Both the position numbers and the translations under genes were made by a program. Positions 48,309-49,791 of a stretch of 64,000 nt of DNA are shown piece after piece. How positions within the stretch are numbered: position 1 is the stretch's first letter; the number at the start of each line of letters is the position of its first letter. Under the pieces are notes generated by a model. It saw only the letters and a program-made list of their open reading frames with translations. It had not been told where the DNA came from and did not search any database. This DNA comes from a virus (taxonomy: Duplodnaviria; Heunggongvirae; Uroviricota; Caudoviricetes): the IMG/VR virus record IMGVR_UViG_2687453522_000001. One strand, 5' to 3'.

Positions 48309-48527
48309 ATGTGGCCATTCCGACGGAAATATCACTACTGGCTGATCGCCTTTGTTACGCCGACCGGCGGTATCAGGCATGTCATCACCAGGTATCGCAA
48401 CAAGAGACTCACCTTAGCCAGAATTTTACAGGCTGCCATAGGTGAGGGACTGGATACAAATTGCGTAGTCCTTCCTCCTTCATACTTAGGAAAAATGACC
48501 GAAGCACAAGCTAATACGGAACTTTGA
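48309..48527 (+). CDS. small hypothetical protein
   Basis: 72-aa ORF immediately after the operator pair. Confidence 0.45.
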   Translation: MWPFRRKYHYWLIAFVTPTGGIRHVITRYRNKRLTLARILQAAIGEGLDTNCVVLPPSYLGKMTEAQANTEL

Positions 48528-48528
48528 A

Positions 48529-49791
48529 ATGATCACTTCAGCACAAAACCAATCAATCGAAAATGTATCTATCCCTGACGTCCTGAATGCCGGTATCCCG
48601 GCCATTATCCAGAACATCCGGGCCGCGCAACGCCGCGTTAGTTGTGATGACCTCACAGCGCGTTTTTTTGATAATGCGGTTCAGTCAGCGGAGATGCTTC
48701 ACGCACAGCTTATTGATGTTTATAACGCAGAAGCTGATAGCCATAACTCCCTGGTAGATGCAGCTGAAAATATGCAGTTGGATCTCGGTCTGAAGGGTAA
48801 AGAAATTGAAGAGCTTCAGCTACAAATTGAACATTTGAAACGCCAGCAACAGGACGCGATCGACAATGCGACGCATGACGCCAACCAGCGTGCTGATAAT
48901 GCCGAACGTATAAGCATTGAGCTGGAAACAAAACTCAATGAAATGACCGCGATGGTTGAACTGCGGAACTCACAGATTTCAACGCTAAAATCTCAATATA
49001 AAGAGATCATGAAACTTGATCCTTTTAACCTTGAGAAACGCTATAACAAAGCTAAAAGCGAGCGACAGGAACTGCGTAAGCAGGTCGCCGACCTTAACCA
49101 ACAGCTCAAAAAAACTATTAAAGATGCAAGCGAAGCGCGCGTGGCATTTGCTAATAAAAAAGCAGAGGTTACCGCGCTGGTTAATGAGAATGCCAAATTT
49201 GCGACGCTCAAGAAGGAAATGTATGGCATTACTGAGCGCCGTTTCCCTGCAAGCAAACTTCATCCGACGTTAGGGCAAATCTCCTTCTTCCCGCGCCTCC
49301 TGGCTTATGGGATCTCATCGCCTAAAGAGTTCAATAACGAGCGTCCTTATATCGTTTCTAAGCTGGACTTTGCTTATCAGTTCTGCTGCGACATGGGCTA
49401 TGCCATTGATATCCGAATCAACGAATGGTTGATGCCAAACTTCCAGCCGTTGGCAATTTTCCGCGAGTTCCAGCCGGAAGGTTGGGTAGAGTTCTTCCAT
49501 GAATTGATCTGTAAAGAGATGGAAAGCCGCCGCCCGGAATTGGTCCGTCGAGTTGAGTGGGCGCAAGAGGTTATGTTGGCAGATGCAGAGCTGCCGTTCG
49601 AACCGGAATTCATTGATGATCTGGCAACTAAAGGGTTGCATACCCTGTTTGATGTGGTTACCCGCCGTCATGAGCAGTTGGTTGTCGAATTGGGTTTAGA
49701 GGAAACAGCGGCAAGAAGACTTCTCGATGTTTGCTATGCACGTAGCGATGCATGGGAAAAAGAGAACGGCGGCACTATTTACGTCCGCTGA
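48529..49791 (+). CDS. coiled-coil protein with conserved C-terminal domain, unknown function
   Basis: 420 aa; residues about 60-230 strongly heptad-like (Glu/Lys/Gln/Leu-rich), then a globular C-terminal domain. Confidence 0.5.
   Translation: MITSAQNQSIENVSIPDVLNAGIPAIIQNIRAAQRRVSCDDLTARFFDNAVQSAEMLHAQLIDVYNAEADSHNSLVDAAENMQLDLGLKGKEIEELQLQIEHLKRQQQDAIDNATHDANQRADNAERISIELETKLNEMTAMVELRNSQISTLKSQYKEIMKLDPFNLEKRYNKAKSERQELRKQVADLNQQLKKTIKDASEARVAFANKKAEVTALVNENAKFATLKKEMYGITERRFPASKLHPTLGQISFFPRLLAYGISSPKEFNNERPYIVSKLDFAYQFCCDMGYAIDIRINEWLMPNFQPLAIFREFQPEGWVEFFHELICKEMESRRPELVRRVEWAQEVMLADAELPFEPEFIDDLATKGLHTLFDVVTRRHEQLVVELGLEETAARRLLDVCYARSDAWEKENGGTIYVR

What the first reader, a model, noticed from the sequence alone, without database searches (positions are those of the whole stretch)
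48309..49791. Repressor-controlled two-gene module: 72-aa protein plus 420-aa coiled-coil protein of unknown function
This module lies directly behind the operator pair and ends at a strong terminator, so it is an autonomous, prophage-repressed unit. The large protein combines a long coiled-coil with a conserved globular C-terminal domain, an architecture common in abortive-infection or exclusion effectors, but I see no recognisable motif.
Basis: inference. Interest (0 to 1): 0.4.

Follow-up and report, generated by a model that had tools for sequence, protein, structure and literature searches.

The report
Phage P1 pmgR-pmgS early operon
This is the already catalogued pmgR-pmgS operon of a P1-type phage-plasmid: a repressor-silenced early unit with a small protein needed to make finished phage heads and a dispensable coiled-coil protein that probably acts on DNA, not a defence toxin.

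Summary
ORFs 48309-48527 (72 aa) and 48529-49791 (420 aa) lie behind two inverted C1 operator sites and end at a strong intrinsic terminator. The unit is not new. It is the pmgR-pmgS operon of phage P1 (PmgR 72/72 and PmgS 419/420 identical), with operators Op86a and Op86b annotated in GenBank, and it occurs in about 680 P1-like plasmids.

Published work shows that a pmgR deletion gives no plaques, only tails and incomplete heads. A pmgS deletion plates normally. Neither protein appears in the virion proteome or in the 2026 cryo-EM model.

New here:
- PmgS belongs to a wider gammaproteobacterial phage family (121 clusters at 50% identity).
- The family ends in an (HhH)2 domain like the RAD51/RadA N-terminal domain or the RNAP alpha CTD (profile E=7.5e-8). 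This follows an alpha/beta domain with no structural match.
- In six integrated prophage lineages the homolog sits in the early-left operon beside RecT, YqaJ-type exonuclease, RdgC and Dam, without pmgR.
- In all seven P1-like lineages examined, a pmgR homolog lies directly upstream.
- The P1 clade has lost the GhG hairpin, and its HhH domain is acidic.

The abortive-infection reading is not supported. PmgS is most likely an early accessory factor acting on DNA or nucleoprotein, at low confidence. The public label "head morphogenesis" has no experimental support.

The parts
48229..48245 (+). C1 repressor operator Op86a (OpmgRa), overlapping the predicted -35 of PpmgR
   Evidence: 14/17 match to the C1 consensus with a perfect 13-base core. 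Annotated in P1 record AF234172.
48230..48258 (+). Predicted sigma-70 promoter PpmgR (-35 TTGCTC at 48230-48235; -10 TAAAAC at 48253-48258)
   Evidence: Transferred from the P1 annotation (locus offset 42199). It is a weak consensus match and was not found by the simple scan. It has not been mapped experimentally as far as I could find.
48254..48283 (+). Terminator-like hairpin (11-bp stem, 6-nt loop, T-run) between the two operators. Probable terminator of the upstream pmgN-pmgQ operon. The predicted PpmgR start site falls inside its loop.
   Evidence: RNA fold dG -13.4 kcal/mol, z -5.65, 0 of 200 shuffles as good. The position relative to the annotated -10 is my own reading.
48278..48294 (-). 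C1 repressor operator Op86b (OpmgRb), inverted relative to Op86a, downstream of the predicted start site
   Evidence: Annotated in the P1 and P7 records.
48299..48304 (+). Shine-Dalgarno AAGGTG for pmgR
   Evidence: Read directly from the sequence.
48309..48527 (+). pmgR, 72 aa. A protein found only in P1-like elements and absent from the virion, essential for head completion, packaging or head-tail joining.
   Evidence: 100% identical to P1 PmgR. phrog_3177 E=4e-47. Deletion phenotype in PMC9024508. Absent from the cryo-EM virion model in PMC12810830. The family has 37 clusters; every contig listed for them is at most about 104 kb, the named members are enterobacterial, and about a dozen sit on contigs of roughly 89-104 kb, the size of a P1-like replicon.
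48529..49791 (+). pmgS, 420 aa. A dispensable early protein, probably translationally coupled to pmgR (TGAaATG).
   Evidence: 419/420 identical to P1 PmgS. phrog_1660 E=1e-194. The deletion mutant is viable.
48649..49224 (+). PmgS residues 41-232: two long helices (41-160 and 168-232) joined at a conserved K-L-D-P turn, forming a coiled-coil stalk
   Evidence: AF2 model. Family consensus ELKxLxxLxPxxLK. Note in the P1 record.
49231..49578 (+). PmgS residues about 235-350: conserved alpha/beta domain with no detectable structural relative and no invariant catalytic-type residues
   Evidence: AF2 C-terminal model, pLDDT 91.7. Foldseek against PDB and BFVD matched only the HhH part. Conservation.
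49582..49764 (+). PmgS residues about 352-412: (HhH)2 domain of the RAD51/RadA N-terminal or RNAP alpha-CTD type. In the P1 clade it is degenerate (ELGLEE in place of KGIG) and acidic (net charge -8).
   Evidence: Family profile against PDB: RAD51 N-terminal domain E=7.5e-8, RNAP alpha CTD E=1e-6. Foldseek RAD51C N-terminal domain TM 0.79, rmsd 1.6 A. Pfam HHH_5 in 16 of 57 and RNA_pol_A_CTD in 12 of 57 members. Hairpin and charge table.
49811..49846 (+). Intrinsic terminator ending the pmgR-pmgS transcript
   Evidence: 11-bp stem with 6 GC pairs, 7-nt loop and T7 tail. dG -18.5 kcal/mol, z -4.09.

Best explanation
The region is the pmgR-pmgS operon of a P1-type phage-plasmid.

**Regulation (annotated or inferred).** In the plasmid prophage, C1 repressor occupies two inverted 17-bp operators. 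Op86a lies over the -35 of a weak sigma-70 promoter. Op86b lies just downstream of the start site. Together they keep the unit silent. After induction or infection, host RNA polymerase makes a bicistronic mRNA of about 1.55 kb that stops at the hairpin at 49811-49846. A second hairpin between the operators probably terminates the upstream pmgN-pmgQ operon. The predicted PpmgR start lies in its loop, so the operon's own transcript cannot form it.

**PmgR (shown by others).** It is essential. Without it only tails and incomplete heads accumulate. It is not in the virion. It is therefore a non-structural factor acting at or before DNA filling or head completion.

**PmgS (shown by others, plus inference).** It is dispensable in the laboratory and is not in the virion. 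From its anatomy it is a long coiled-coil stalk carrying a novel alpha/beta domain and a C-terminal (HhH)2 module. From its family's position beside RecT, exonuclease, RdgC and Dam in other temperate phages, I infer that it is an early accessory factor. It would bind DNA or a DNA-associated protein during phage DNA replication, recombination or processing, and so tune the substrate that is later packaged. It is neither a capsid part nor a toxin.

**Confidence by part.** Identity and regulation about 0.95. The role of PmgR as described about 0.7. The DNA or nucleoprotein role of PmgS about 0.35.
For: **Identity**
- 99.4% nucleotide identity to P1 over 1701 bases.
- PmgR 72/72 and PmgS 419/420 identical to P1.
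- The P1 and P7 records annotate Op86a/b, PpmgR and both genes.
- 682 plasmid records carry the region at 95% identity or more.

**Regulation**
- Operator matches are far above chance.
- Both hairpins fold significantly better than shuffles.
- An operator (L004) or an inverted operator-like repeat with a CTAAT core (L003, L018) precedes the pmgR homolog in distant relatives.
- No late-promoter -22 box was seen by eye in the intergenic region.

**PmgR**
- The deletion gives fewer than 1e2 PFU/mL, with tails and incomplete heads. The pacA packaging control gives proheads plus tails. Complementation in trans gave a 180-fold rescue (PMC9024508).
- The cryo-EM connector consists of Prt, PmgC, gp7 and gp24, with no PmgR (PMC12810830).
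- No PDB chain matches PmgR.

**PmgS**
- The deletion mutant is viable with normal restriction behaviour, and the CRISPRi knock-down scores nonessential.
- It is absent from the virion proteome text and tables (0 occurrences).
- The (HhH)2 domain is supported.
- All 57 aligned family members fall in one PHROG.

**Context of PmgS homologs in integrated prophages**
- Aeromonas: DUF3799 exonuclease, RecT, a 362-aa gene, PmgS-like, a 46-aa gene, Dam, a 59-aa gene, RdgC.
- Plesiomonas: RecT then PmgS-like.
- Enterovibrio: YqaJ/Gp5.9 ... FtsK-gamma, DUF3268, PmgS-like, a 121-aa gene, Dam.
- Vibrio breoganii: PmgS-like, a 74-aa gene, Dam, integrase.
- A metagenomic prophage: YqaJ, RecT, PmgS-like ... 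Dam ... integrase.
- Another contig: RdgC-like then PmgS-like.

**Gene pairing**
- A PmgR homolog lies directly upstream in 7 of 7 P1-like lineages and in 0 of 6 integrated-prophage lineages.
Against: - There is no direct biochemical or genetic evidence for any PmgS activity.
- The P1-clade (HhH)2 domain has lost the first glycine of the GhG hairpin, and close relatives have lost both. It is strongly acidic, with net charge -8 against a family median of about -1. Direct DNA binding by this module in P1 itself is therefore doubtful. It may bind a protein instead, as the acidic HhH repeats of NusA do (my own knowledge).
- Gene neighbourhood in early-left operons is suggestive only. These operons also carry host-takeover and anti-defence genes.
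- The middle domain has no known relative, so the actual activity could lie there.
- The PpmgR promoter is only a prediction and is weak by consensus.
- PmgR's phenotype does not separate a packaging role from a head-completion or chaperone role.
Confidence: 0.55

Rival explanations
1. PmgS is an anti-defence or host-takeover factor. During early lytic growth it binds a host protein and not DNA. Candidate targets are an SMC-type or RecBCD-type nuclease complex, or the transcription machinery, through an acidic domain that resembles the RNAP alpha CTD or NusA-AR. Its role would be to protect or favour phage DNA.
For: - It is early, C1-controlled and dispensable in a permissive laboratory host.
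- The P1-clade HhH domain is acidic and has lost the DNA-contacting hairpin.
- Family members match RNA_pol_A_CTD in 12 of 57 cases.
- In Enterovibrio it lies in the same operon as a YqaJ protein fused to a T7 Gp5.9-type RecBCD-inhibitor domain.
- The surrounding P1 block holds accessory enzymes: Ppp phosphatase and Pap, a PNKP-type phosphatase.
- In P1-like elements it always lies downstream of darB.
Against: - The pmgS deletion shows normal plating on EcoA, EcoB and EcoK restricting hosts.
- No similarity to any known anti-defence protein was found.
- Most family members keep a canonical, near-neutral KGIG hairpin typical of DNA binders.
Confidence: 0.2
2. PmgS is what the databases call it, a morphogenetic protein: a scaffold, head-size factor or assembly chaperone that leaves the particle. 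It would act together with PmgR in head completion.
For: - Database labels: 'putative morphogenetic function' in P1, 'sheath contraction' in P7, and PHROG 'PmgS-like head morphogenesis'.
- It is tightly linked, and probably translationally coupled, to pmgR, whose loss blocks head completion. The pair is conserved in 7 of 7 P1-like lineages.
- Long helical proteins often serve as scaffolds (my own knowledge).
- Absence from virions is compatible with a scaffold that exits.
Against: - The pmgS deletion makes normal plaques.
- The operon has a C1-controlled early promoter and no late promoter.
- Homologs in six integrated-prophage lineages sit in early-left recombination and integration modules, far from structural genes and without pmgR.
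- An (HhH)2 domain is not a feature of known scaffolds.
- The labels trace back to map position, not to an experiment.
Confidence: 0.12
3. One reading: the module is an autonomous abortive-infection or superinfection-exclusion unit whose large coiled-coil protein is a toxic effector.
For: - It has a coiled coil plus a globular C-terminal architecture, with weak PADLOC matches to LmuB and JetC.
- It is a compact unit with its own terminator on a prophage.
Against: - It is repressed by C1 in the lysogen, so it is not expressed when a prophage defence would be needed.
- pmgR is essential for the phage's own virion production.
- The PADLOC matches are confined to the coiled coil, and there is no ATPase, nuclease, membrane or other effector domain.
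- It is expressed during normal P1vir lytic growth, with transcripts reported at 10 and 20 min after infection.
- It is universally conserved in P1-like elements, as expected of a core gene and not of a variable defence island.
Confidence: 0.04

Closest known systems
Phage P1 pmgR-pmgS operon with operators Op86a/Op86b (GenBank AF234172; Lobocka et al. 2004 annotation). In P7 the genes are called shtA and shtB.
   Same: The DNA is 99.4% identical. PmgR is 100% and PmgS 99.8% identical. The operators, promoter prediction, gene order (pmgQ | pmgR pmgS | pap) and terminator are the same.
   Different: Nothing material. There is one N/D substitution in PmgS. The window is 100% identical in this stretch to a Salmonella plasmid, LT905089.1.
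(HhH)2 domains: the RAD51/RadA/DMC1 N-terminal domain, the RNA polymerase alpha C-terminal domain, and the NusA AR1/AR2 repeats
   Same: The C-terminal ~60 residues of the PmgS family have the same fold. The match rests on the profile result (RAD51 N-terminal domain E=7.5e-8, alpha CTD E=1e-6), on structure (TM 0.79, rmsd 1.6 A) and on Pfam.
   Different: The rest of the protein is unrelated: there is no RecA-type ATPase core and no RNAP alpha N-terminal domain. In the P1 clade the GhG hairpin is degenerate and the domain is acidic. In this respect it resembles the protein-binding NusA AR repeats more than DNA-binding HhH modules (my own knowledge for NusA).
Early-left (pL-type) accessory and recombination modules of lambdoid prophages (RecT or Bet with exonuclease, RdgC, phage Dam)
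   Same: PmgS homologs of Aeromonas, Plesiomonas, Vibrio and Enterovibrio prophages, and of two uncultured contigs, lie inside such modules between the repressor and the integrase.
   Different: P1 has no such module around pmgS. P1 pairs pmgS with pmgR, which these prophages lack. No homology was found between PmgS and any component of known function.
SMC-like defence proteins (Lamassu LmuB, Wadjet JetC)
   Same: Long coiled-coil segments give weak profile matches at E of 1e-4 to 1e-6.
   Different: The matches cover only PmgS residues 55-229. There is no Walker-type ATPase head, no hinge and no partner genes. I treat these as compositional coiled-coil matches.
Small head-completion proteins such as lambda gpW (an analogy for PmgR only, from my own knowledge)
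   Same: The size is similar (about 70 aa), and the mutant phenotype is similar: unjoined heads and tails.
   Different: gpW is a virion component added to filled heads. PmgR is absent from the P1 virion proteome and cryo-EM connector. It is expressed from an early repressor-controlled promoter and has no detectable sequence relative in the PDB.

Membership tests
P1 PmgS family (phrog_1660) | Full-length sequence match to the family profile | tested here: met
   E=1e-194 over residues 1-420. 419/420 identical to P1 PmgS.
P1 PmgR family (phrog_3177) | Full-length sequence match, and a position directly upstream of pmgS | tested here: met
   E=4.3e-47 over residues 1-72. 72/72 identical to P1 PmgR. 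The adjacency holds in 7 of 7 P1-like lineages.
C1-repressor-controlled P1 operon | Asymmetric 17-bp operator(s) matching ATTGCTCTAATAAATTT and overlapping the promoter | tested here: met
   Two sites at 14/17 with a perfect 13-base core. The window holds 10 sites against 0.53 expected. They coincide with annotated Op86a/b.
C1-repressor-controlled P1 operon | C1 actually binds the sites and represses transcription from PpmgR | not testable with these tools
   This rests on the GenBank annotation and older binding studies that I could not retrieve. The P1 genome paper (PMC523184) is not held, and a text search for Op86 found nothing relevant.
(HhH)2 domain (Pfam HHH_5 / RNA_pol_A_CTD / RAD51 N-terminal domain) | Two helix-hairpin-helix units forming a five-helix domain | tested here: met
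   AF2 model with pLDDT around 95 in this part. Foldseek RAD51C N-terminal domain TM 0.79, rmsd 1.6 A, probability 1.0. Family profile E=7.5e-8.
(HhH)2 domain (Pfam HHH_5 / RNA_pol_A_CTD / RAD51 N-terminal domain) | Conserved G-h-G hairpin that contacts DNA phosphates | tested here: not met
   P1 PmgS has E-L-G-L-E-E where about 45 of 57 relatives have K-G-[IMLF]-G. Close relatives such as P0010 (NYDMTPED) have no glycine at all. The feature is met for the family but not for this protein.
(HhH)2 domain (Pfam HHH_5 / RNA_pol_A_CTD / RAD51 N-terminal domain) | The protein's own sequence passes the Pfam threshold | tested here: not met
   P1 PmgS alone gives no HHH hit. Membership is inferred through homologs: P0029 hits HHH_5 at 1.7e-7, and 16 of 57 members hit it.
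Abortive-infection / defence systems (PADLOC) | A match to a defence protein that covers its functional (ATPase or effector) domain | tested here: not met
   Only LmuB and JetC coiled-coil segments match, at PmgS residues 55-229. Pfam shows no effector domain.
Abortive-infection / defence systems (PADLOC) | Expression in the lysogen, and a variable accessory distribution | tested here: not met
   Operators place the unit under C1 repression. The genes are among the 21 most conserved core genes of P1-like phage-plasmids (PMC9603915) and occur in 682 plasmid records.
Virion structural / morphogenetic protein | Presence in the virion, or a requirement for particle formation | tested here: inconclusive
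   This comes from the literature, not from my own test. PmgR is required but is not in the virion. PmgS is not required and is not in the virion. A transient scaffold role for PmgS is not excluded.
SMC-like proteins | N- and C-terminal ATPase head halves and a hinge flanking the coiled coil | tested here: not met
   There is no AAA or SMC_N match for PmgS. The termini are a 40-residue helix and an alpha/beta plus HhH domain.

The most novel reading that the evidence does not exclude
The PmgS family (phrog_1660), now propagated through databases as 'head morphogenesis', may be an unrecognised class of temperate-phage early proteins. Each member would be a coiled-coil stalk carrying a new alpha/beta fold and an (HhH)2 module, working with Red/RecT-type recombination and Dam modules. 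Possible roles are a DNA tether or mediator, or a shield for recombination or replication intermediates. In P1-type phage-plasmids the family would have been re-wired: its HhH hairpin degenerated, and it became coupled to the lineage-specific PmgR. This would link early DNA processing to the production of packageable DNA and filled heads.
Probability: 0.3. Interest if true: 0.5.

Novelty: already known. Interest (0 to 1): 0.22.

Why it matters
As a genome feature it does not matter much. It is a textbook-phage operon that was annotated in 2004 and partly characterised in 2022.

The useful results are corrective.
1. The abortive-infection reading can be dropped.
2. The widely propagated label 'PmgS-like head morphogenesis' has no experimental basis. 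It conflicts with the deletion phenotype, the virion proteome, the cryo-EM model and the family's genomic contexts.
3. PmgS now has a concrete, testable domain assignment, an (HhH)2 domain, and a concrete set of associated genes: RecT, exonuclease, RdgC and Dam.
4. PmgR is essential, early-expressed and absent from the virion. Its mutant looks like a packaging mutant, which makes it a candidate for an unknown step between P1 DNA processing and head filling.

P1 is the standard transducing phage, and P1-like phage-plasmids spread resistance genes. Unknown essential steps in its packaging pathway therefore have some practical interest.

Tried and rejected
- **Pfam on PmgS and PmgR alone.** This gave only sub-threshold coiled-coil matches.
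- **Foldseek with the full-length PmgS model.** The model had pLDDT 72.6 and pTM 0.41, and only the (HhH)2 part matched. I re-modelled residues 225-420 with a 30-sequence alignment (pLDDT 91.7). The middle alpha/beta domain still had no match in PDB or BFVD. The low-probability Dpo4 and Y-family polymerase rows (rmsd above 11 A) and the AF1548 row probably come from their HhH-like parts and were not pursued.
- **PADLOC LmuB, JetC, PglW and DruC matches.** I rejected these as coiled-coil composition.
- **PDB profile search with PmgR.** It found nothing, even at E up to 10.
- **The search for related loci with family alignments A3 and A6.** I sampled contexts with the look-up of encoding contigs instead, using all 12 look-ups.
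- **Late (Lpa-dependent) promoter upstream of pmgR.** I compared the region by eye with the annotated -22 boxes of LPpmgL and LPhot and saw none.
- **Simple promoter scan.** It did not recover the annotated PpmgR, so the promoter stays 'predicted'.
- **Literature.** The P1 genome paper (PMC523184) is not held. Searches for 'Op86' and 'PmgS-like' gave nothing relevant. A bare 'pmgS' search is swamped by unrelated acronyms.
- **PmgR homologs near PmgS homologs in integrated prophages.** A six-frame HMM search found none within 8-10 kb.
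Full report
**1. Observation**

One base separates the stop of the first from the start of the second (TGAaATG). A Shine-Dalgarno AAGGTG lies 4 nt before the first ATG.

Upstream there are two matches to the P1 C1-operator consensus ATTGCTCTAATAAATTT in inverted orientation, at 48229-48245(+) and 48278-48294(-). Each has a perfect 13-base core. The whole window holds 10 such matches against 0.53 expected.

Downstream, an 11-bp GC-rich stem followed by T7 lies at 49811-49846. Its folding energy is -18.5 kcal/mol, z = -4.1.

**2. Identity**

The 1.7-kb stretch is 99.4% identical to phage P1 and 99.1% identical to P7. It is 100% identical to a 97-kb Salmonella plasmid and is present in 682 plasmid records at 95% identity or more. 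The window therefore comes from a P1-type phage-plasmid.

The P1 GenBank record annotates precisely these features:
- operator OpmgRa (former Op86a, 'controls expression of pmgR and pmgS');
- a predicted sigma-70 promoter, PpmgR;
- operator OpmgRb (Op86b);
- pmgR and pmgS, both labelled 'putative morphogenetic function'.

P7 calls the two genes shtA and shtB. The window's PmgR is 72/72 identical to P1's and its PmgS is 419/420 identical. PHROGs place the two proteins in phrog_3177 (unknown function) and phrog_1660 ('PmgS-like head morphogenesis'). Pfam finds nothing significant in either protein.

**3. What is already known experimentally**

Gonzales et al. 2022 (PMC9024508) made in-frame deletions of both genes.
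- The pmgR deletion gives fewer than 1e2 PFU/mL.
- Their DNA-packaging control, a pacA deletion, gives proheads plus tails.
- pmgR supplied in trans restores plaque formation and raises lysogen-forming particles 180-fold.
- PmgR was not detected in the virion proteome.
- The pmgS deletion produced infectious virions with a normal restriction phenotype (Table S3).
- PmgS is not mentioned anywhere in the main text or tables, including the virion proteome table (0 occurrences).

A CRISPRi screen (PMC10695390) also scored pmgS as nonessential. It listed pmgR among the known essential genes that the knock-down missed.

[quoted passage not shown] The connector consists of Prt, PmgC and gp7, plus the terminator gp24. 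Neither PmgR nor PmgS is part of the particle. No PDB chain matches either protein as a whole.

Both genes are among the 21 most conserved genes of P1-like phage-plasmids (PMC9603915).

**4. Regulatory anatomy**

By transfer of the P1 annotation, the -35 (TTGCTC, 48230-48235) lies inside Op86a and the -10 (TAAAAC) lies at 48253-48258. This promoter is weak by consensus and the simple scan did not find it. It remains a prediction.

Between the operators lies a hairpin at 48254-48281 with an 11-bp stem, a 6-nt loop and a following T-run. Its folding energy is -13.4 kcal/mol, z = -5.65. I read it as the terminator of the upstream pmgN-ppp-pmgQ operon. A start site about 7 nt after the annotated -10 would fall in the loop, so the pmgR transcript would lack the 5' arm and would not terminate there. 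This is an inference.

I saw no Lpa-type late promoter box in the intergenic region.

The design recurs in distant relatives.
- L004 (PmgS 53% identical) has an operator with 2 mismatches, plus an inverted core on the other side of a hairpin.
- L003 (27% identical) has a perfect 15-bp inverted repeat, AAGATACTAATTTAT, flanking the same position.
- L018 has an abutting inverted ATCTAATA/TATTAGAT repeat.

Repressor control of this unit is therefore a conserved feature, even where the immunity specificity differs.

The consequence for interpretation is that this is an early lytic unit that is off in the lysogen. That is the opposite of what a prophage-borne defence needs.

**5. The large protein**

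AF2 on the full-length protein gives two very long helices (41-160 and 168-232), joined at a conserved K-L-D-P turn, followed by a globular region (mean pLDDT 72.6). A second model of residues 225-420, built on a 30-sequence alignment, is confident (pLDDT 91.7, pTM 0.86).

Three independent lines identify the last ~60 residues as an (HhH)2 domain.
- The most distant homolog from the first search (P0029, 27% identity, aligned over 98% of the query) hits Pfam HHH_5 at 1.7e-7. Across the family, 16 of 57 members hit HHH_5 and 12 of 57 hit RNA_pol_A_CTD.
- A family profile hits the RAD51 N-terminal domain at E=7.5e-8 and the RNAP alpha CTD at E=1e-6 in the PDB.
- Foldseek superposes the domain on the RAD51C and RadA N-terminal domains with TM 0.79, rmsd 1.4-1.6 A and probability 1.0.

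The preceding alpha/beta domain (residues about 235-350) is well conserved, with consensus LDWH..R..G....V..EWL.P..P......WP......HP.LV.R..WA. It has no match in PDB or BFVD. Its only near-invariant residues are G, W, P and L, so nothing points to an enzyme.

One important nuance concerns the P1 clade. About 45 of 57 family members keep the canonical K-G-[IMLF]-G hairpin in a near-neutral domain. P1 PmgS instead reads E-L-G-L-E-E, its close relatives have no glycine at this position, and the net charge is -8 or -7. The P1 protein therefore belongs to an HhH family by descent, but it fails the hairpin criterion itself. It may bind a protein and not DNA.

**6. Family and context**

An exhaustive profile search found 121 representative clusters at E up to 1e-3, and 84 at E up to 1e-10. 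All 57 full-length members that I aligned fall in phrog_1660. The named members are all Gammaproteobacteria.

Two kinds of context appear.

*(a) P1-like phage-plasmid contigs of roughly 80-100 kb.*
- They come from Escherichia, Salmonella, Cronobacter, Buttiauxella, Rosenbergiella and Tatumella (named PmgS-family members) and from unnamed metagenomic contigs. PmgR-family members also carry Pantoea names.
- In every lineage sampled here the gene lies downstream of a darB-like giant gene.
- In all 7 lineages examined (P1/P7, L003, L004, L009, L010, L015, L018) a PmgR homolog lies immediately upstream.

*(b) Integrated lambdoid-type prophages.* Here the gene lies in the early-left operon between the repressor and the integrase, with no PmgR homolog within 8-10 kb.
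- Aeromonas: DUF3799 exonuclease, RecT, a 362-aa gene, PmgS-like, a 46-aa gene, Dam, a 59-aa gene, RdgC..., integrase.
- Plesiomonas: RecT, PmgS-like..., integrase.
- Vibrio breoganii: HTH protein, PmgS-like, a 74-aa gene, Dam, integrase.
- Enterovibrio: YqaJ fused to a T7 Gp5.9-type domain..., FtsK-gamma, DUF3268, PmgS-like, a 121-aa gene, Dam..., integrase.
- An uncultured prophage: YqaJ, RecT, PmgS-like..., Dam..., integrase.
- A further contig: RdgC-like, then PmgS-like.

The PmgR family is small. It has 37 clusters. Every contig listed for them is at most about 104 kb, the named members are enterobacterial, and about a dozen sit on contigs of 89-104 kb, the size of a P1-like replicon.

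So PmgS is an old, mobile early gene that associates with recombination and DNA-modification modules. PmgR is a P1-lineage invention. Their pairing is specific to P1-type elements.

**7. Most likely mechanism**

The shown or annotated parts are as follows.
- A C1-repressed early bicistronic unit bounded by a terminator.
- PmgR is essential for producing complete, tail-joined heads and is not itself a virion component.
- PmgS is dispensable and non-structural.

My inferences are as follows.
- PmgR acts as a cofactor or chaperone at or before DNA filling. Its mutant phenotype resembles the pacA control, it is expressed early, and it is absent from the connector.
- PmgS is an elongated, probably oligomeric, coiled-coil protein. 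Its C-terminal module engages DNA or a DNA-bound protein during early phage DNA metabolism.
- In P1 the tight coupling to pmgR suggests that the two act on the same pathway, with PmgS as the non-essential helper.

I put the identity and regulation part at about 0.95, the PmgR statement at about 0.7 and the PmgS mechanism at about 0.35.

**8. Rivals**

- An anti-defence or host-takeover role for PmgS (0.2) fits the early, dispensable status, the acidic degenerate HhH domain and the neighbourhood of accessory genes. There is no positive evidence for it, and restriction phenotypes were normal on EcoA, EcoB and EcoK hosts.
- A true morphogenetic or scaffold role (0.12) is what the labels say, and it fits the link to pmgR. 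It conflicts with the viable deletion mutant, the early promoter and the family's contexts.
- The abortive-infection or exclusion reading (0.04) conflicts with C1 repression, with pmgR being essential to the phage, with the core-gene distribution and with the absence of any effector domain. The PADLOC LmuB and JetC matches cover only the coiled coil.

**9. Verdict**

This is a real, correctly delimited feature, but it is already known: the P1 pmgR-pmgS operon with Op86a/b. The modest new content is fourfold:
- the (HhH)2 assignment and its degeneration in the P1 clade;
- the recombination-module context of the family;
- the strict PmgR-PmgS pairing in P1-type elements only;
- the finding that the propagated 'head morphogenesis' label is unsupported.

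Interest is low (0.22).

Noticed in passing
window 48254-48283: A strong terminator-like hairpin (dG -13.4 kcal/mol, z -5.65) sits exactly between the two inverted C1 operators. The annotated -10 of PpmgR would put the transcription start inside its loop. The same DNA may therefore terminate the upstream pmgN-pmgQ operon while letting pmgR transcripts escape.
   Followed up: partly
window 10917-10995 and 11039-11126: Rfam finds an isrK-type Hfq-binding RNA (58.5 bits) directly upstream of the C4 antisense RNA (76.7 bits). This is the P1 immI region.
   Followed up: no
window 33410-33482, 33488-33560, 37010-37082: Three tRNA genes are present, as expected for P1.
   Followed up: no
window 10831, 12569, 29203, 32725/32736, 44605, 50370, 60063: Eight further C1-operator matches are present. 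They include an overlapping divergent pair at 32725-32752 and the site before pmgT at 50370-50386 (former Op88).
   Followed up: no
window 49864-50370: pap (a PNKP-type HAD 3'-phosphatase with a TTG start) begins only 18 nt after the T-run of the pmgS terminator. The P1 record annotates no promoter for it. How it is transcribed (read-through or an unannotated promoter) is unclear.
   Followed up: no
window 45539-50370 (pmgN to pap): The block labelled 'putative morphogenetic' looks like a set of early, C1-controlled accessory enzymes and not assembly genes. It includes Ppp, a lambda NinI-type Ser/Thr phosphatase, PmgQ in a PHROG called glycosyltransferase, and Pap with a HAD_PNKP domain. All are nonessential in the deletion survey except pmgR; the CRISPRi screen additionally scored pmgN essential.
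   Followed up: partly
L003 9704-9750; L018 about 7745-7766; L009 about 7735-7750: Distant P1-like relatives carry different operator-like sequences before their pmgR homologs, all with a CTAAT core. L003 has the inverted repeat AAGATACTAATTTAT and L018 has ATCTAATA/TATTAGAT; L009 has a single reverse-oriented site, not an inverted repeat. This suggests diverged immunity specificities with a conserved operator position.
   Followed up: partly
L006 11358-11960, L013 9328-9837, L014 9463-9999, L017 5398-5985: In four independent integrated-prophage lineages a phage Dam methyltransferase (PF05869) follows the PmgS homolog, after one to four small genes (one in L006, L013 and L014; four in L017). 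This is a recurrent linkage of unknown meaning.
   Followed up: no
L014 4330-6045: The Enterovibrio prophage encodes a 571-aa protein that combines a YqaJ exonuclease domain with a T7 Gp5.9-type (RecBCD inhibitor) domain. It lies in the same early operon as the PmgS homolog.
   Followed up: no
L010 7618-8136 and L018 7774-7998: PmgR-like ORFs were not called by the source gene predictions in these contigs. In L010 the ORF overlaps the called start of the PmgS homolog, which suggests that start (giving 472 aa) is called too far upstream.
   Followed up: partly
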